A stretch of DNA of 6,502 bases from a virus (IMGVR_UViG_3300045988_042115:1-6502); one strand, 5' to 3'. Counted from the stretch's first letter, positions 1 through 6,502 are shown. A program made the numbers and translations. The notes: generated from the sequence alone by a model not told the origin.

Positions 1-77
1 TCGACACGACCAAGCGTCCAACACGCACGTACAACTTCATCGGCACACGCCGCCTGCGCTCTGTCGTTGAAAAAGAA
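1..77. repeat. Terminal direct duplication, copy 1 (identical to 6426-6502); an assembly overlap marking a circular molecule
   Basis: Base-by-base comparison shows 1-77 (tcgacacgaccaagcg...gttgaaaaagaa) is identical to 6426-6502. A single minus-strand reading frame runs uninterrupted through the implied junction. Confidence 0.95.
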
Positions 78-1564: not shown

Positions 1565-1795
1565 TTAACTATCCGTTAAATCTTTGTTAGGAAAGGTTAA
1601 GTAACTTACATAGACACCATATTGGAAAGAACCAAGTACTGCAGTACGAGGAGTAATCCAGAATAGTGGCCAAGAGTCATGATAAACTACAAGGCCTGAA
1701 AACATCATGAGAGATTTGGCAGATAGCGAGGTCAAAAATTCGCCAATTTCGGCCAAATCATGAAACGGAATAGGACAACCTTCAATTTTATACAT
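1565..1795 (-). CDS. Hypothetical protein, 76 aa
   Basis: ATG-initiated ORF with T-rich third positions. It is the first gene after the large non-coding region. No recognisable domain. Confidence 0.6.
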   Translation of the reverse strand: MYKIEGCPIPFHDLAEIGEFLTSLSAKSLMMFSGLVVYHDSWPLFWITPRTAVLGSFQYGVYVSYLTFPNKDLTDS

Positions 1796-1811
1796 AACAT
1801 CAAAATTTAGG

Positions 1812-1839
1812 GGAAAGGTGACAAGCGTGTCACTTTTCC
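1812..1839. promoter_or_regulatory. Inverted repeat with 12-nt arms and a 4-nt spacer, GGAAAGGTGACA-AGCG-TGTCACTTTTCC (perfect core GTGACA-N4-TGTCAC), 17-44 nt upstream of the ORF76 ATG. Operator-like or a stem-loop.
   Basis: Direct pairing of 1812-1823 with 1828-1839 gives 11 Watson-Crick pairs plus one G-T (1817/1834) on the plus strand, which is A-C on the minus strand. Confidence 0.6.
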
Positions 1840-1862
1840 TATACTAGGACAAGAAATAAGGA

Positions 1863-1886
1863 GTGCGAGAAATTACTAACTCGCAC
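1863..1886. other. Stem-loop with a 7-bp GC-rich stem (GTGCGAG/CTCGCAC) and a 10-nt AT-rich loop, TTAGTAATTT on the gene/viral strand. Candidate Rep nick-site hairpin.
   Basis: 1863-1869 pairs perfectly with 1880-1886. The loop is 1870-1879. It lies 17 nt from the tandem-repeat array. Confidence 0.55.
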
Positions 1887-1903
1887 CCCTAAATCATCTA
1901 AGG

Positions 1904-1954
1904 CTCGAGGTTCTCGAGGTCTCGAGGTTCTCGAGGCCTCGAGGTTCTCGAGAG
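1904..1954. repeat. Tandem repeat: 17-nt unit CTCGAGGTTCTCGAGGY x3, which is six CTCGAG palindromes at alternating 9/8-nt spacing
   Basis: CTCGAG starts at 1904, 1913, 1921, 1930, 1938 and 1947. The units at 1904-1920, 1921-1937 and 1938-1954 differ only in their last 1-2 nt. The array is also a near-palindrome centred on 1928. Confidence 0.95.
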
Positions 1955-2003
1955 ACGCACCAAACTTGAGGGAGTCACTCGCAAGCGCGTGGATTATCTG
2001 TCT

Positions 2004-2073
2004 GAGCTAAAAGCTCCGCTTTTGGGGACGCATCCGCGTCCGCCGCTCAGTTGCCAACCATTTAGGTTGGCAA
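2004..2073. other. Cluster of GC-rich stem-loops just downstream (gene strand) of the VP2 stop
   Basis: There are four pairings. (1) 2004-2008/2012-2016, GAGCT-AAA-AGCTC. (2) 2009-2014/2018-2023, AAAAGC-TCC-GCTTTT, an alternative that excludes the first. (3) 2026-2031/2036-2041, GGACGC-ATCC-GCGTCC. (4) 2051-2059/2065-2073, TTGCCAACC-ATTTA-GGTTGGCAA, 9 bp. Confidence 0.7.
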
Positions 2074-2084
2074 ATGCTACGGAA

Positions 2085-3224
2085 TCACTTATTCAAGTTC
2101 ATAGGCTTACCAGCACGACCTTTAGTAATCATACCAGCAGCAGTTCCTGCACCAATAGAAGAACCAAGACCCCAAGCTGATTTTTCACGAGGAGAAATCC
2201 AATAATTATTCTCCTTACGAAGAATCTCCGTCTGATTCCAAGTAGACTCAATAACATCTCCAGCAGTCTGAAATGCGATTTCATTACTAACCTTTTGGCC
2301 AGAAGCTTGGGCTTTACTCAAAATCGACTGAGCAAGATAATACTTACCTTGATAACGAGTCATCTCTCCTTGCGCAATTTTTAGCGCAACAGAGGCTGCA
2401 GCATCGGCAACACCAAGACGCAATTGTTCAGGCAAATAACTGAATTTCAAAGTATCGGAAGCTACCTGTATCTGCAATGACTTAAAGACCTCACGAGAGT
2501 TTAATAAATCCTGAGCAGACTGTGAAGCATGATTTCGAGATATTTGGTCCTGATACTGATTAATAATCTCCTGATAACGAGCCTTCTGTTTAGAACTATC
2601 CGCTTCAGCGTAATCTTTATAAATTTCTGACATAATCTTTTGACCTATATACTGAGTCTCAGTATTAATTTGCTTCGCTTCAGCAGTATCACGGGCAGCT
2701 GTAGCAGTAGAGGTTTTATAAGACGCATAAGCCTGAACACCGTCCATAACAGCCTGACCAAGATTAGGAGGCTGATAAGGACGCATAACAGCTTGGCCTG
2801 AAGAAGATGCTAAACCAGAACCTTGAGACGAAGGAGTAGAGCCCGAAACAGATCCAACAGTAGCAGAAACTCCAGCGTTAGGAAGCATAAGGTTAGGATT
2901 ATAACCAGCTTCCTCGATACGCTGCCTCTGCGCAGAAGGGGTCATATACTCATTTTGTTTGTCAAACATCTCACGCTGGAAATCCTGAGAACCTTCAAAA
3001 AACTCACTTGACAATTGCCGATTAGTATCATTCTCCTGCTTATTAAATGATAACTGTTTTTCCAACATTTTCTGATTGAATTCATTATTCATTTGATTAA
3101 TACGGAAATTCATATCATTTGTGTACTTGTTGGATTTAGAACCAGCAATCGTAGAGGCAGTGCCGCCTAATAGACCAGCAGCACCACCTGCAATACCAAT
3201 AATAGCGGCAGTCTCAAGTCCCAT
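2085..3224 (-). CDS. VP2: Minor capsid / DNA pilot protein (Microviridae VP2, functional analogue of phiX174 H), 379 aa
   Basis: The Gly/Ala-rich hydrophobic N-terminus (MGLETAAIIGIAGGAAGLLGG), the long Q/N/E/K-rich helical middle, the Gly-rich C-terminus and the position downstream of VP1 are typical of gokusho/alpavirus-type VP2. The start shares one base with the upstream stop (TAATG). Confidence 0.8.
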   Translation of the reverse strand: MGLETAAIIGIAGGAAGLLGGTASTIAGSKSNKYTNDMNFRINQMNNEFNQKMLEKQLSFNKQENDTNRQLSSEFFEGSQDFQREMFDKQNEYMTPSAQRQRIEEAGYNPNLMLPNAGVSATVGSVSGSTPSSQGSGLASSSGQAVMRPYQPPNLGQAVMDGVQAYASYKTSTATAARDTAEAKQINTETQYIGQKIMSEIYKDYAEADSSKQKARYQEIINQYQDQISRNHASQSAQDLLNSREVFKSLQIQVASDTLKFSYLPEQLRLGVADAAASVALKIAQGEMTRYQGKYYLAQSILSKAQASGQKVSNEIAFQTAGDVIESTWNQTEILRKENNYWISPREKSAWGLGSSIGAGTAAGMITKGRAGKPMNLNK

Positions 3225-3706
3225 TATTCAGAAGGGTTAGAATCTTCCGAAGCAGGAGCGGAAGACCTATTCAACGCAGCATTCAAATCCTGCTGAGACT
3301 GAATAGAATTGAGTTCATTACGGAATTCAGACATAATATAATGCGTCCAAGAACGCAACTCAGACGGTGACTGAATATAACGAGATTTAACAAACTCAGA
3401 GAGTTTGTCTACAGGAACTTTATTACGAAGTTCATGCAAACCGTCATCCGATGCGTTAGTACTCAACAAATATTCCTGCAAAGCCTGAGCAGTCATACGG
3501 TCGAGCCGCTTCTGATTAAACAACATATACACATCACTAACGAAATGCTTTGCAGAATGTTTATTTGAAGACGTTTCATCCAAAATATAATGTTCATCCA
3601 AAACAGTACATTCACGAGAAACACAAGTGTCAAGAGCAGCCACATACGAAGGCTGCGGATTTTTATGCGGAGTAAATCCACAAATAAAGTTAATACGGGA
3701 GTCCAT
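3224..3706 (-). CDS. Hypothetical 160-aa protein between VP1 and VP2. It may be an internal scaffolding (VP3-like) protein, judged by size and position only.
   Basis: ATG ORF overlapping the VP1 3' end by 17 nt and abutting the VP2 start. It is hydrophilic and helical-looking with an acidic C-terminus (SSAPASEDSNPSE). I cannot assert sequence similarity without a search. Confidence 0.65.
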   Translation of the reverse strand: MDSRINFICGFTPHKNPQPSYVAALDTCVSRECTVLDEHYILDETSSNKHSAKHFVSDVYMLFNQKRLDRMTAQALQEYLLSTNASDDGLHELRNKVPVDKLSEFVKSRYIQSPSELRSWTHYIMSEFRNELNSIQSQQDLNAALNRSSAPASEDSNPSE

Positions 3707-5543
3707 TGTAATCCAATTTACGAGTGAAACGAACGTTAAAAAATGAAGTTATCCAAAATTCATCAGTGTCTACAGTATCATCAGCAGCAACGAGGAACAG
3801 GGCATCAGCAAGTCGAGGGTTAACCTTAAAGAACGAATAAGCAACAGAAGCCGAAGGTACTTTAGGATTCTCAGAACCGTCATAGACGTTGTCCTGCGGT
3901 GACCGAGCCAAATCATCATCCAAAAATGGCATACACCAGCTCTGCAATGCAGTACGAAATGCGCCAAAACTCATGTCATAGTCAGTTTTCCAATTAATAT
4001 ACCGAGCAACATAGCCGAGCTGAGAAGGTAATGTTCCTGAATCAAGAGGATTATTCACAAGCTGGACACGAGGAAGTAACTCCATGCCAACATTGTCCAT
4101 CTCAGGAATCGGGAACGAAGTAGCATCGATTATAAGATTCTGACCACGAACACCTGAAGTAAGATAATCCACGAGAGGTAAAATATGAGTAACACACATA
4201 ATAATACCGTATCTATCTTTTGCTTCAAATTCAATAGAACCACTTCCTGAACCAACACCTTTTCCACGGATAAATGCACCATTATCCTCAATACCAGCAG
4301 CAAGATTAGTATTAGTAACTTCATTAATATCAAGAGATACAGAAGTACCACCAAGATAAGTTACCATGTGAGACAAGTAGTCAGACACAGGAATACCCCA
4401 GTGTGCTTCAATCTGAGACTTATAATCTTCATCCGCAGATTGAGCAACCTCTTTCCAACGCTGTAATGCTTCATACTGACGCAGCATCAGAATACTAAGA
4501 GATGCAGAGGATTGAATCTGCTGAGAAGACAGAGAACCAACAGCAGAATAAGGGCCGCCTGATGCAGAAAGACGACCTTTTGTATCTAGCTGCTGAATGG
4601 GTACGTTAGTAGCAGGCAAGCTGCCTGAATCGTTCTTAAATACAGAAGTAATACTCTGAGCAGGAATACTAGCATCAAAATTCAACGGAACAGCAGAAGT
4701 AGAACCATACTGAGCATTTGGGAGAATGCCGTGAAATAAATCCTTCTGCATGTTACAATACCTCATATCAAACAAATTGAATGAGACATTCTGTCTCTTA
4801 CCACCTGATGTAGGGGTAAGAAGAGAATCAATAGAATCAGACAAGTCGGTATCACCAACACCTGAGAGATAATCAAAATTATAAGTACTTGGGTTAGAGC
4901 GTTCCCACTGAGTATATCGATATCTATCAGAATATATCTTCTGATAAGCGGCAAATGGAAATAGACTAACTTTAGCATTATCTAGAAAATCACCTTCAGA
5001 AGGCTTAGCAATTTTAGGACTAAGGCCAGCAAAACGATAAAAATCACCATAACCAAGTGCCTCAAGAAGACGAGCAGTATTATAGCCACGATTGAAACCG
5101 AAAAAATCCTTATTTGGAGCACCATCACTACCGACAGAAGACGCTACAGAAGCACGTGAGACATAATTAGCAATAGTAAGCAAGTCAGTATGCGGAAAAG
5201 AACCGTCCGTAGTTTTAAATGGATTAACGAGAGACGTAGCATGTTGTTGGTTCGCATTCATCTGCGTAATAACAGCATCAGTCTTATTCCATAAAAACTC
5301 AAGCGGAACGAAATAAAAGTCAAAATATTGACGGATACGAGCAAACGCCGCAGTATTAATGGGGACAGTACGAGTAAACGCCGACAAATCAACCTTAACC
5401 TTATCACCAGGAATACAATATTGCCACCATAGAGGATATAACTGACCCATTTTTTGAGTAAAGTTACGTTTAGTAGACAAATCAAAACCGTTGTATGAAG
5501 TCTTATTCTGTAAGCGCATCATACTCATAATATTATTACTCAT
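3690..5543 (-). CDS. VP1: Major capsid protein (Microviridae VP1 / phage F-type jelly-roll capsid), 617 aa
   Basis: The N-terminal signature ...YNGFDLSTKRNFTQKMGQLYPLWWQYCIPGDKVKVDLSAFTRTVPINTAAFARIRQYFDFYFVPLEFLW is characteristic of Microviridae major capsid proteins. It is the longest ORF. Its ATG overlaps the Rep TGA (ATGA, 5540-5543). Confidence 0.95.
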   Translation of the reverse strand: MSNNIMSMMRLQNKTSYNGFDLSTKRNFTQKMGQLYPLWWQYCIPGDKVKVDLSAFTRTVPINTAAFARIRQYFDFYFVPLEFLWNKTDAVITQMNANQQHATSLVNPFKTTDGSFPHTDLLTIANYVSRASVASSVGSDGAPNKDFFGFNRGYNTARLLEALGYGDFYRFAGLSPKIAKPSEGDFLDNAKVSLFPFAAYQKIYSDRYRYTQWERSNPSTYNFDYLSGVGDTDLSDSIDSLLTPTSGGKRQNVSFNLFDMRYCNMQKDLFHGILPNAQYGSTSAVPLNFDASIPAQSITSVFKNDSGSLPATNVPIQQLDTKGRLSASGGPYSAVGSLSSQQIQSSASLSILMLRQYEALQRWKEVAQSADEDYKSQIEAHWGIPVSDYLSHMVTYLGGTSVSLDINEVTNTNLAAGIEDNGAFIRGKGVGSGSGSIEFEAKDRYGIIMCVTHILPLVDYLTSGVRGQNLIIDATSFPIPEMDNVGMELLPRVQLVNNPLDSGTLPSQLGYVARYINWKTDYDMSFGAFRTALQSWCMPFLDDDLARSPQDNVYDGSENPKVPSASVAYSFFKVNPRLADALFLVAADDTVDTDEFWITSFFNVRFTRKLDYNGLPY

Positions 5544-6502
5544 CTTTGTTCAAGAAAAATTTTATTAGCATCATTAAGTTTTTTATGTTTTATACGGTCA
5601 TTGTACAAAGAATATATTTGAGACTGCCAACGACCATAAACACGAGAGTTAACAATATCACCAGCAGTAGCAGGTGTATTATCATAGAACAAGTACAAAT
5701 CTTCATCCTGACATATATCAGATTCAAAATACAATTGTTCGGCGGACAATTGGTCTGATAAATGCATCATATCAACATAAGACCAAAACTCATCAATAAG
5801 TCTGAGTTTACGATTAATCTCATAGACGGACTGCGTATCACATACATAAGTTAAAAAATGTTTAGATAATAATAATTCACTATATACACGATTGACGAAT
5901 TTCAAAAAATCCTCATCCTCAGGAGAAGTACAAGATTCAGGAAAGTCATCGTTATCAGAAAAATACCTTAAAAACTCACAATGAGAAGCATCAAAATTAT
6001 AACGTGGTCTATCTCCATACAGAAATATATCTATCGCAATTTCCTGCGCGACCTTGGAGGCACTTTGGCAGGCTGCGGAGGGATAATATATCCGCGCTTT
6101 ACTCCATAATCTATAAGAGTAAGAACGCCTACGTGGAGGGAGAGAAGCAAACTTTTTACATCGGGGAAAGAAGAAAGCTGAACACGACCGCCACACGTCA
6201 AACTGCTTATACTTTCCATCGAGGAACATGCTTCTATGGATAAACTCAGCAGGGGTTTTTTCATATATGTTTTTTCTTTCATTTTTAAGAAACGGGAGAC
6301 CGAGCCACTGAGAATGGGTGCAGAACGGTCTGAGACTGCCAGTTTTAAAAAATCGGGGTATAAAGCCAGTACTGTTAACATATCCCGCAACATAGTTTGA
6401 AGCGGTACCCTTGGTGGCTTGCACGTCGACACGACCAAGCGTCCAACACGCACGTACAACTTCATCGGCACACGCCGCCTGCGCTCTGTCGTTGAAAAAG
6501 AA
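5540..6502 (-). CDS. VP4: Replication initiation protein VP4/Rep, C-terminal part. The unique portion is 5540-6425; 6426-6502 repeats codons already counted in 1-77.
   Basis: The frame is open from the window end to the TGA at 5542-5540. The track's GTG 'start' at 6424 is an internal Val. It contains the twin-tyrosine motif III, SNYVAGYVNS (compare YVAKYVNK in phiX174 protein A), immediately after the junction. Confidence 0.9.
   Translation of the reverse strand, partial: FFFNDRAQAACADEVVRACWTLGRVDVQATKGTASNYVAGYVNSTGFIPRFFKTGSLRPFCTHSQWLGLPFLKNERKNIYEKTPAEFIHRSMFLDGKYKQFDVWRSCSAFFFPRCKKFASLPPRRRSYSYRLWSKARIYYPSAACQSASKVAQEIAIDIFLYGDRPRYNFDASHCEFLRYFSDNDDFPESCTSPEDEDFLKFVNRVYSELLLSKHFLTYVCDTQSVYEINRKLRLIDEFWSYVDMMHLSDQLSAEQLYFESDICQDEDLYLFYDNTPATAGDIVNSRVYGRWQSQIYSLYNDRIKHKKLNDANKIFLEQR
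6426..6502. repeat. Terminal direct duplication, copy 2 (identical to 1-77)
   Basis: Exact 77/77 identity with the window start. Confidence 0.95.

What the first reader, a model, noticed from the sequence alone, without database searches (positions are those of the whole stretch)
1904..1954. Array of six CTCGAG palindromes (17-nt unit x3) that is both a tandem repeat and a 49-nt near-palindrome
CTCGAG starts at 1904, 1913, 1921, 1930, 1938 and 1947 with strictly alternating 9/8-nt spacing. The three 17-nt units differ only at their last 1-2 bases (..GGT / ..GGC / ..GAG). Every hexamer is self-complementary, so the whole array can fold on itself. Positions 1904-1926 pair with 1930-1952 around a GTT loop, with one T-T and three G-T pairs on the plus strand, and many slipped registers are equally possible. 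It is non-coding. Such ordered short repeats next to a hairpin are what iterons (Rep-binding sites) look like in rolling-circle replicons. Other possibilities are binding sites for a phage or host regulator, a cruciform-forming recombination hotspot, or a copy-number-variable region. The G-T pairs follow automatically from the repeat design, so they are not independent evidence for a strand preference.
Basis: seen in the sequence. Interest (0 to 1): 0.65.

Follow-up and report, generated by a model that had tools for sequence, protein, structure and literature searches.

The report
Copy-number-variable hairpin repeat in microvirus spacer
The six XhoI-like palindromes are real: they are three tandem copies of one small conserved stem-loop in the folded non-coding spacer of a gut microvirus, relatives carry one to three copies, and this looks like a slippage-prone structural element rather than a set of replication-protein binding sites.

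Summary
All six CTCGAG sites in the window lie at 1904-1952, spaced 9/8 nt, as three 17-nt units that also form a 23+23-nt near-palindrome. The window is a closed 6425-nt microvirus genome, Alpavirinae-like, with a Bacteroidales host inferred. All genes are on the minus strand. The array lies in the only large non-coding region (1796-2084), between the pilot-protein gene and a block of small ORFs.

On the viral strand each unit is a 15-nt hairpin, CTCGAG-AAC-CTCGAG, plus a 2-nt linker. Relatives that are 85-87% identical keep this spacer at 93-95% identity, and four of its stems show compensatory changes. They carry 1, 2 or 3 units, and one contig holds two alleles. Most have arms CTCGGG/CCCGAG, or CTCGGG/TCTGAG with G·T wobbles. 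So pairing between neighbouring hexamers is conserved, not the palindrome.

The same six-site array appears in two other assemblies of this strain, so it is not an artefact.

Best reading: a slippage-driven expansion of a selected stem-loop that acts in the viral strand or its transcript. It is probably part of a complementary-strand origin or a transcript 3'-end hairpin cluster. Iterons are not supported. A distant microvirus lineage independently carries 0-4 copies of CTCGAGGTT.

The parts
1904..1954 (-). The array. On the viral (minus) strand it is three tandem 17-nt units, each a 15-nt stem-loop CTCGAG-AAC-CTCGAG. The stem-loops run 1952->1938, 1935->1921 and 1918->1904, with 2-nt linkers GC (1937-1936) and AC (1920-1919). 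It can also fold as one long imperfect hairpin centred on the middle loop (1927-1929).
   Evidence: The exact 15-mer occurs three times against 0.10 expected by chance.
1796..2084 (-). The only large non-coding region of the genome, made of a series of hairpins. Outside the array it is 93-95% identical to relatives whose genomes are 85-87% identical overall.
   Evidence: Fold z-scores are -8.6 (viral strand, DNA), -7.8 (complement, DNA) and -6.3 (viral sense, RNA). 99% of pair cells are paired, and 0 of 500 shuffles reach the observed covariation score.
2051..2073 (-). Hairpin S1 (TTGCCAACC / GGTTGGCAA), which starts about 12 nt after the VP2 stop codon.
   Evidence: Compensatory C-G to T-A change in 3 of 7 sequences.
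2002..2050 (-). Three-way element. Closing stem S2 (CTGAGC/GCTCAG) encloses hairpins S3 (GGACGC/GCGTCC, 2024-2044) and S4 (AAAAGC/GCTTTT, 2009-2022).
   Evidence: S2 has a compensatory G-C to A-T change. S4 has a matched one-base deletion in both arms in three relatives. In S3 only the loop varies.
1976..1991 (-). Hairpin S5, CACGCGC-TT-GCGCGTG. It is a perfect palindrome in all relatives, but the window has one mismatch (GCGAGTG).
   Evidence: Contig L317 ends here.
1859..1890 (-). Hairpin S7 (AGGGGTGCGAG / CTCGCACTCCT), with a G·T wobble on the viral strand that is kept in all relatives.
   Evidence: Compensatory T-A to C-G change in 2 of 6 sequences.
1812..1839 (-). Hairpin S8 (GGAAAAGTGACA / TGTCACCTTTCC). 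It is invariant, with a conserved A·C mismatch on the viral strand that would be G·T on the complement.
2085..3224 (-). VP2-like DNA pilot protein gene (379 aa), immediately upstream of the non-coding region on the viral strand.
   Evidence: PHROG 8689 and 31272, 'pilot protein for DNA ejection'.
1565..1795 (-). Conserved 76-aa ORF, the first of the small ORFs downstream of the non-coding region.
   Evidence: Called as a gene in all relatives. No family match.
3690..5543 (-). Major capsid protein VP1 (617 aa). Given for context; it identifies the genome as a microvirus.
   Evidence: Pfam Phage_F and PHROG 514.
5540..6502 (-). C-terminal part of Rep. The 488-aa gene starts at 581 and crosses the circle junction, and bases 1-77 repeat 6426-6502.
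   Evidence: Pfam PF23343 REP_ORF2-G2P.

Best explanation
The array is a three-copy tandem expansion (a VNTR) of one conserved 17-nt module. The module is a 6-7 bp stem (CTCGRG / CYCGAG), a 3-nt AAC loop on the viral strand, and a 2-nt linker. It sits in the roughly 290-nt multi-hairpin intergenic region of a circular ssDNA microvirus of Bacteroidales.

Shown: (1) Every relative has at least one copy at this position. (2) The stem is kept by compensatory changes and by G·T wobbles that work only on the viral, mRNA-sense strand. (3) Copy number is 1, 2 or 3 among close relatives, and two alleles occur in one sample's contig. (4) The CTCGAG palindromes appear only when stem pair 5 is A-T, so they are a by-product.

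Inferred: copies are gained and lost by slipped-strand mispairing during rolling-circle or complementary-strand synthesis. The nearly self-complementary arms favour this. In this allele the six identical palindromes allow many pairing registers, so it should be especially unstable.

Inferred function: the hairpin acts as a folded single strand together with its neighbouring conserved hairpins. Most likely this is the cis-acting domain where the host primes complementary-strand synthesis (about 0.4). Next most likely is a hairpin cluster that ends or protects the late transcript (about 0.3). The extra copies are probably neutral, or adjust the strength of that element.
For: Anatomy and significance.

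Genome context (circular microvirus, all genes on the minus strand, one large non-coding region).

Alleles on the viral strand:
- One unit, CTCGGGAACCCCGAG, in 19 contigs.
- One unit, CTCGGGAACTCTGAG (L092, L212, L400).
- Two units (L319-L321).
- Three units (the end of L211, and the circular contig L423).
- Three all-CTCGAG units (window, L317, L318).
- L211 carries the one-unit allele at one end and the three-unit allele at the other.

Covariation: stem pair 129/135 is G-C in 4 sequences and A-T in 3. Pairs 128/136 and 130/134 become G·U. Three other stems have double changes. 99% of cells are paired, and the covariation score exceeds all 500 shuffles and all slid registers.

Strand: the wobble allele folds at -2.2 (DNA) or -6.4 (RNA) kcal/mol in the viral sense, against -0.9 or -2.5 in the antisense.

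Conservation: the region is 93-95% identical outside the array, against 85-87% genome-wide.

Precedent: conserved intergenic hairpins with compensatory changes in other microviruses have been proposed as complementary-strand origins, by analogy with the phiX174 primosome site (PMC9865509).
Against: No experiment or read-level data supports any function, and the origin of either strand is unknown in this virus group. Wobble evidence for the strand is mixed. S7, the long-range helix and the array favour the viral strand, while S8 carries a conserved A·C there that would be G·T on the complement. In this window the long form of the array folds slightly better on the complementary strand (-19.6 against -17.5 kcal/mol). 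Only seven distinct sequences at about 13% divergence support the covariation. Symmetric changes in an inverted repeat are also expected for a dimeric DNA-binding protein. A distant lineage carries the same 9-mer with the spacer inverted relative to its coding strand. That pattern is easier to explain by recognition in double-stranded DNA, or by no specific recognition at all.
Confidence: 0.6

Rival explanations
1. RNA-level element. The array and its neighbouring hairpins form a hairpin cluster in the 3' end of the late (VP1-VP2) transcript. The cluster terminates transcription without a U-tract or blocks 3' exonucleases, as the intergenic hairpins of phiX174 mRNAs do. Copy number would then set the amount of read-through into the small-ORF/Rep block.
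For: The hairpins lie directly downstream of the last large gene, and S1 starts about 12 nt after the VP2 stop. The wobble pairs are in the mRNA sense and are more stable as RNA. In the distant L028/L062 lineages the CTCGAGGTT array begins within about 12 nt of the Rep stop codon. Hairpin clusters within 80 nt of stop codons, often without poly-U, have been reported as termination units in bacteria (PMC8355165). An inverted loop sequence in the other lineage fits a purely structural role.
Against: The scan found no canonical terminator (hairpin plus T-run) on either strand in 1500-2300. In this window the array starts about 130 nt after the stop codon, beyond the reported 80-nt zone. Single-stranded linkers and loops are conserved too (93-95%), which a simple stability element does not need. 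No transcript data exist.
Confidence: 0.25
2. Iterons. The repeats are binding sites on duplex DNA for the phage Rep at or near the plus-strand origin. This would resemble the repeats bound by gene II protein in the Ff intergenic region, or the iterons next to the origin hairpin in CRESS-DNA viruses.
For: Ordered direct repeats lie in the only large non-coding region of a rolling-circle replicon, next to conserved hairpins. The Rep belongs to Pfam PF23343, which also covers filamentous-phage G2P. Symmetric changes in both half-sites fit a dimeric binder.
Against: Copy number is 1, 2 or 3 with Rep 94-100% identical, and two alleles occur in one contig. The wobble alleles make the two half-sites unequal (CTCGGG against CTCAGA) yet recur in several samples. 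The motif occurs nowhere else in the genome. In phiX174-type microviruses the origin lies inside the Rep gene and has no iterons (established knowledge).
Confidence: 0.08
3. Operator array. Each 15-bp inverted repeat is the site of a dimeric phage or host transcription regulator that controls the small-ORF/Rep block downstream.
For: The units are inverted repeats with a 3-bp spacer, they lie upstream of the next gene block, and both arms change together. The same 9-mer in a second Bacteroidales-type microvirus lineage could reflect a shared host factor.
Against: No protein in the genome has a recognisable DNA-binding domain. The wobble alleles have asymmetric half-sites. The array is about 110 nt from the next start codon, with two other hairpins in between. 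The L028 lineage loses the whole region in close relatives.
Confidence: 0.05
4. Assembly or library artefact, such as a collapsed or invented repeat or linker-derived XhoI sites.
For: Repeats and hairpins are hard to assemble. Three related contigs break at or next to the array.
Against: The identical 49-nt array occurs in two further k141 contigs from other ENA assembly records that are 99.97-100% identical to the window. Homologous arrays sit at the same locus in diverged relatives from several projects. The flanks are conserved, and the 77-nt overlap suggests a k-mer that spans the array.
Confidence: 0.01

Closest known systems
Complementary-strand origins of ssDNA replicons: the phiX174 primosome assembly (n'/PriA) hairpin in the F-G spacer, the G4 oriC hairpins recognised by primase, and the sso regions of rolling-circle plasmids
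   Same: A non-coding stretch of the packaged strand, strongly folded into several hairpins, and more conserved than its surroundings. Compensatory changes like those reported for other uncultured microviruses are present (PMC9865509). This window meets those sequence-level features.
   Different: No priming activity is known here. None of the named origins contains a tandemly repeated, copy-number-variable hairpin. The ssoA CS-6 motif TAGCGW is absent from 1796-2084. The wobble evidence for strand is mixed.
The Ff (f1/M13) intergenic region
   Same: A single large spacer made of successive hairpins that holds the cis-acting functions of a rolling-circle ssDNA phage. The Rep belongs to a Pfam family shared with gene II protein.
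   Different: There is no sequence similarity. The roles of the Ff hairpins (packaging signal, minus origin, plus origin) were established by experiment, and none is a VNTR.
Iterons of CRESS-DNA viruses, geminiviruses and plasmids
   Same: Short ordered direct repeats in the non-coding region of a Rep-encoding replicon.
   Different: Iterons are conserved as sequence, with fixed number and spacing matched to the Rep. Here pairing is conserved, sequence drifts, and copy number varies with an almost unchanged Rep.
Hairpin-forming tandem repeats (VNTRs) in mitochondrial control regions, and bacterial REP/BIME palindromic unit clusters
   Same: Non-coding tandem units able to form stem-loops, gain and loss by slippage, heteroplasmy-like coexistence of alleles, and a location downstream of genes.
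   Different: The genome type and scale differ. Here the single unit is itself under selection, since it is present in all relatives with compensatory evolution.
Intrinsic terminators and mRNA-stabilising hairpins in the phiX174 intergenic regions, and hairpin-cluster terminators (PMC8355165)
   Same: GC-rich hairpins directly after the stop codon of the last gene of a co-directional block.
   Different: There is no U-tract, and in this window the array lies about 130 nt after the stop codon.

Membership tests
Iterons (Rep-binding direct repeats at a replication origin) | Short direct repeats of one sequence in a non-coding region | tested here: met
   Three 17-nt units, 96% matches. The exact 15-mer occurs three times.
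Iterons (Rep-binding direct repeats at a replication origin) | Number and spacing conserved among replicons that share the Rep | tested here: not met
   1, 2 or 3 units among viruses with Rep 94-100% identical, and two alleles in contig L211.
Iterons (Rep-binding direct repeats at a replication origin) | The repeat sequence itself, rather than intra-strand pairing, is what is conserved | tested here: not met
   CTCGAG/CTCGAG against CTCGGG/CCCGAG is a compensatory change, and the CCTGAG and TCTGAG arms give G·T wobbles.
Iterons (Rep-binding direct repeats at a replication origin) | Lies next to the Rep nick site and is bound by Rep | not testable with these tools
   The origin is unknown in this virus group. 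This needs nick mapping and EMSA or footprinting.
Variable-number tandem repeat | Head-to-tail copies whose number differs among close relatives or within a population | tested here: met
   Copy numbers 1, 2 and 3 at the same locus between conserved anchors. Both alleles occur in L211. This rests on contigs, not on reads.
Complementary-strand origin (phiX174 PAS, G4 oriC, plasmid sso) | Non-coding, strongly and conservedly folded segment of the packaged strand | tested here: met
   z = -8.6. Four stems have compensatory changes and 99% of cells are paired. 93-95% identity against 85-87% genome-wide.
Complementary-strand origin (phiX174 PAS, G4 oriC, plasmid sso) | Structure specific to the viral strand | tested here: inconclusive
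   G·T wobbles favour the viral strand in the array, S7 and the long-range helix. S8 favours the complement.
Complementary-strand origin (phiX174 PAS, G4 oriC, plasmid sso) | Conserved ssoA motif CS-6 (TAGCGW) in a loop | tested here: not met
   No TAGCGW within 1796-2084.
Complementary-strand origin (phiX174 PAS, G4 oriC, plasmid sso) | Supports primer synthesis on SSB-coated ssDNA | not testable with these tools
   This needs an in vitro ssDNA-to-RF assay with host proteins.
Canonical intrinsic terminator | GC-rich hairpin followed by a T/U run | tested here: not met
   0 terminator-like sites on either strand in 1500-2300.
Hairpin-cluster terminator (PMC8355165) | Two or more hairpins less than 15 nt apart and within about 80 nt downstream of a stop codon | tested here: inconclusive
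   S1-S4 fit this, since they start about 12 nt after the VP2 stop. The array itself starts about 130 nt downstream. In the L028 lineage the array starts 12 nt after the Rep stop. There are no transcript data.
Restriction-site (XhoI-type) cluster | The palindromic CTCGAG hexamer is the conserved feature | tested here: not met
   Most relatives, including L092, L211, L212, L215-L234 and L319-L321, have no CTCGAG at all but keep the hairpin.
Known RNA families (Rfam) and tRNA-like elements | Match to a curated covariance model | tested here: not met
   Only two hits, at E = 0.7-0.9 and far below the gathering scores. No tRNA or tmRNA.

The most novel reading that the evidence does not exclude
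The hairpin repeat may be a contingency locus of an ssDNA phage. Slippage would change the number of stem-loops, and so tune a cis function such as complementary-strand priming or read-through from late to early genes. The same CTCGAG plus 3-nt-loop mini-hairpin array would recur in two unrelated Bacteroidales microvirus lineages because a shared host factor recognises it.
Probability: 0.12. Interest if true: 0.65.

Novelty: new variant of a known kind. Interest (0 to 1): 0.38.

Why it matters
Uncultured gut microviruses have no mapped origins, promoters or terminators. This locus gives a defined, strongly conserved cis-element with natural alleles: 1-3 hairpins, plus compensatory and wobble variants. 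Those alleles could be used directly in priming, termination or binding assays. It is also a clean example of compensatory evolution through wobble states in an ssDNA genome. It serves as a strain-level length marker. Finally, it warns that such repeats break microvirus assemblies and can look like protein-binding iterons or restriction-site clusters.

Tried and rejected
- Rfam at E <= 1 gave only two spurious hits, SIB_RNA and mir-490. There is no tRNA or tmRNA.
- blastn of the spacer against 50,697 GenBank phage records found no match.
- The exact look-up of the window's VP1 found nothing on record.
- The array pattern was not found in 185,579 bacterial and archaeal species genomes, so there is no prophage or host copy.
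- A scan of 80 VP1 relatives at 35-46% identity for GC-rich tandem mini-hairpins found none comparable. The array is therefore not a general feature of this group.
- The single-unit motif CTCGGGAACCCCGAG in IMG/VR gave only chance hits.
- A phiX174-origin-like TTGATATTA at the start of the 76-aa ORF, and a Bacteroides-type -7 box TAAATTTG, are present in some relatives. They are absent from the window (TTGATGTTA, TAAATTTTG) and from L315 (CCTGTTGTTATG), so I treat both as coincidence.
- The ssoA CS-6 motif is absent from the spacer.
- The scan found no canonical terminator and only weak sigma-70-like matches. That scan is not designed for Bacteroidales promoters.
- Whether sharing the 9-mer with the L028/L062 lineage exceeds chance could not be assessed, because those loci were found by searching for that motif.

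Full report
**1. The observation**

The window reads ggCTCGAGgttCTCGAGgtCTCGAGgttCTCGAGgcCTCGAGgttCTCGAGag at 1902-1954. CTCGAG occurs six times in the 6502 bases, all of them here. Chance would give 1.04, and none of 200 dinucleotide-preserving shuffles reached six.

Tandem Repeats Finder reports 1904-1952 with period 17 (2.9 copies, 96% matches, no indels) and, less cleanly, period 9. The repeat finder gives arms 1904-1926 and 1930-1952 as 83% complementary around three bases. No ORF of 40 aa or more crosses the array.

**2. Genome context**

- The first and last 77 bases of the window are identical, so it is a closed circle of 6425 nt.
- All convincing genes are on the minus strand, so the packaged, mRNA-sense strand is the window's minus strand.
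- The genes are:
  - a 488-aa Rep that crosses the junction (Pfam PF23343);
  - a 617-aa major capsid protein (Pfam Phage_F, PHROG 514);
  - a 160-aa protein;
  - a 379-aa DNA pilot protein (PHROG 8689);
  - a run of small ORFs.
- Capsid relatives at 34-44% identity are integrated in contigs of Bacteroides, Phocaeicola plebeius, Prevotella, Paraprevotella and Muribaculaceae. I infer that this is an Alpavirinae-like microvirus of Bacteroidales.
- The array lies in the only large non-coding region, 1796-2084, between the pilot gene's stop codon and a conserved 76-aa ORF.

**3. Relatives**

Close relatives came from a capsid search and exact-sequence contig look-ups. They are 85-87% identical to the window over the whole genome.

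The non-coding region outside the array is 93-95% identical, so it is better conserved than the mostly coding remainder of the genome. It is a chain of hairpins. Several stems vary in ways that preserve pairing:

- S1 changes C-G to T-A in three of seven sequences.
- The closing stem S2 changes G-C to A-T.
- S4 loses one base from each arm in the same three sequences.
- S7 changes T-A to C-G.

Overall 99% of pair cells are paired. The covariation score exceeds all 500 column shuffles and all registers slid by 1-3 columns. Fold z-scores are -8.6 (viral strand, DNA), -7.8 (complement, DNA) and -6.3 (viral sense, RNA). Nothing in Rfam matches, there is no tRNA, and the region has no DNA match among GenBank phages.

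**4. What the array is**

Read on the viral strand, it is [CTCGAG-AAC-CTCGAG] GC [CTCGAG-AAC-CTCGAG] AC [CTCGAG-AAC-CTCGAG]. That is three tandem 15-nt stem-loops with 2-nt linkers. Between the same conserved anchors (GGTGCGTCT ... TTTAGGGG) the relatives carry the following alleles:

| Allele | Units | Sequence (viral strand) | Where found |
|---|---|---|---|
| A | 1 | CTCGGG-AAC-CCCGAG | 19 contigs from JGI and Logan samples |
| B | 1 | CTCGGG-AAC-TCTGAG | L092, L212, L400 |
| C | 2 | two CTCGGG/CCCGAG units | L319-L321 |
| D | 3 | 3' arms CCCGAG, then CCCGAG or CCTGAG, then TCTGAG | end of L211; circular contig L423 |
| G | 1 + decayed second | first unit CTCGAG type | L315 |
| F | at least 2 | CTCGAG type; contig ends inside the array | L213 |

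Three conclusions follow.

- The conserved feature is complementarity between neighbouring hexamers, not the hexamer sequence or its palindromy. Stem pair 5 is G-C in four aligned sequences and A-T in three, and two other pairs become G·T. When pair 5 is A-T, both arms happen to read CTCGAG. That accounts for all six 'XhoI sites', and most relatives have no CTCGAG at all.
- The variant 3' arms differ from CCCGAG only by C-to-T changes, which give G·T wobbles on the viral strand and A·C mismatches on the complement. The wobble allele folds at -2.2 (DNA) or -6.4 (RNA) kcal/mol in the viral sense, against -0.9 or -2.5 in the antisense. So the hairpin is selected on the viral strand or its same-sense transcript.
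- Copy number is labile. L211 carries the one-unit allele at one end and the three-unit allele at its redundant other end, which is best explained by both alleles being present in that sample. Multi-unit alleles occur in both hexamer types, which suggests that expansion happened more than once.

**5. Not an artefact**

L317 (99.97% identical over 6409 nt) and L318 (100% over 5804 nt) are k141 contigs from two other ENA assembly records, and they contain the identical array. The window's 77-nt overlap suggests an assembly k-mer longer than the 49-nt array.

L317 and L318 both begin eight bases before the array, and L213 stops inside its own array. This fits a locus that is heterogeneous in reads, but I could not inspect reads.

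**6. A second, distant occurrence**

A motif scan of IMG/VR found low-GC contigs of about 6 kb carrying tandem CTCGAGGTT. These microviruses have a different gene order, and their Rep is only 20-25% identical to the window's.

In them the array starts about 12 nt after the Rep stop codon, and its spacer is inverted relative to the coding strand. Among close relatives with Rep 80-100% identical it has 0, 1, 2 or 4 copies. In several the whole segment is deleted, and a 48%-identical lineage has CTCGAGGTT or CTCGGGGTT repeats.

So the same kind of expansion has happened at least twice. Because I found these loci by searching for the motif, I cannot say whether sharing the 9-mer exceeds chance. 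Eighty capsid relatives at 35-46% identity have no comparable arrays. The motif is also absent from representative bacterial genomes.

**7. Mechanism**

Shown:
- The array is a VNTR of a selected stem-loop.
- It sits inside a conserved, folded spacer.

Inferred:
- Units are gained and lost by slipped-strand mispairing while the DNA is single-stranded. The nearly self-complementary arms favour this. This allele has six identical palindromes that can pair in many registers, so it should be the least stable.

Function is inferred only by analogy.

- **Most likely (about 0.4): part of the complementary-strand origin.** The packaged strand must be converted to duplex by host enzymes. In phiX174 and G4 this starts at intergenic hairpins. 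Similar conserved hairpins with compensatory changes have been proposed for this role in other uncultured microviruses, although the authors note the role cannot be certified (PMC9865509).
- **Main rival (about 0.25-0.3): an RNA-level hairpin cluster ending or protecting the late transcript.** The position just after the last large gene supports this, as do the sense-strand wobbles and the location right after the stop codon in the second lineage. There is also a report that hairpin clusters terminate transcription without U-tracts (PMC8355165). Against it, there is no canonical terminator, the array is about 130 nt from the stop codon here, and the unpaired linkers are conserved too.
- **Iterons or operators on duplex DNA (about 0.1 together).** These are disfavoured by variable copy number with a nearly identical Rep, unequal half-sites in the wobble alleles, and the absence of the motif elsewhere in the genome.

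The wobble evidence for the strand is not unanimous. S8 carries a conserved A·C on the viral strand.

**8. Comparison and novelty**

The spacer behaves like the structured cis-regions of ssDNA replicons: the phiX174 PAS, G4 oriC, the Ff intergenic region and plasmid sso elements. Membership cannot be claimed, because the defining activities cannot be tested here and the ssoA CS-6 motif is absent.

The array fails two defining features of iterons and fails the definition of a canonical terminator. It meets the definition of a VNTR.

I found no description of a copy-number-variable hairpin repeat in a microvirus intergenic region in the literature searched, but that search was narrow. I rate it a new variant of a known kind, of moderate interest. 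It is real, cleanly dissected and experimentally usable, but probably a structural element with neutral or modulatory copy-number change rather than a new mechanism.

Noticed in passing
window 1-77 and 6426-6502: The two ends are an exact 77-nt direct repeat, so the window is a closed circular genome of 6425 nt. The Rep gene (581->1, continuing 6425->5540) crosses the junction.
   Followed up: yes
window 1976-1991: Hairpin S5 is a perfect palindrome, CACGCGC-TT-GCGCGTG, in every relative. The window has one mismatch (GCGAGTG). Contig L317, otherwise 99.97% identical, ends here with the perfect form.
   Followed up: partly
window 1771-1778 and 1845-1852 (+ strand TAGGACAA, viral strand TTGTCCTA): An exact 8-nt direct repeat flanks hairpin S8 and the start of the 76-aa ORF. 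Both copies are also recognisable in the 65%-VP1 relative L214, whose spacer is otherwise not alignable. It may be a regulatory or promoter element.
   Followed up: partly
L334-L344, just after the Rep stop codon (for example L334 3506-3560): In a distant microvirus lineage from IMG sample 3300045988, the segment after Rep is hypervariable among viruses with Rep 80-100% identical. It has 0, 1, 2 or 4 copies of CTCGAGGTT, and the whole segment is deleted in L336, L339, L340 and L343.
   Followed up: partly
L211, positions 1-190 and 6300-6528: The redundant ends of this contig carry different array alleles, one unit against three units. This suggests two length variants in one human gut sample (ERR527172).
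   Followed up: partly
L423 (ERZ773260, circular with a 55-nt overlap), array near 2590-2665: This three-unit allele has graded 3' arms, CCCGAG, CCTGAG and TCTGAG, giving 0, 1 and 2 G·T wobbles on the viral strand. All differences are C-to-T.
   Followed up: yes
L319 1-12302: This 12.3-kb contig is a head-to-tail dimer of a relative's genome. Both copies have the same two-unit array.
   Followed up: no
window 2085-2170, and relatives: The C-terminal end of the pilot protein varies in length (368-381 aa among relatives that are about 86% identical), with indels just before the stop codon that borders the conserved spacer.
   Followed up: no
window 3575-3614: An 18-nt tandem repeat (2.2 copies, 77% matches) lies in coding sequence around the start of the 160-aa ORF and the end of VP1.
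   Followed up: no
L322, L325-L333: Capsid relatives at 28-44% identity sit inside long contigs of Bacteroides, Phocaeicola plebeius DSM 17135, Prevotella, Paraprevotella and Muribaculaceae. This indicates prophage forms and a Bacteroidales host range for the wider group.
   Followed up: partly
L288 12447-12557: A 22-nt x 5 tandem repeat with hairpin potential lies near the end of a 12.7-kb contig that carries a microvirus capsid gene.
   Followed up: no
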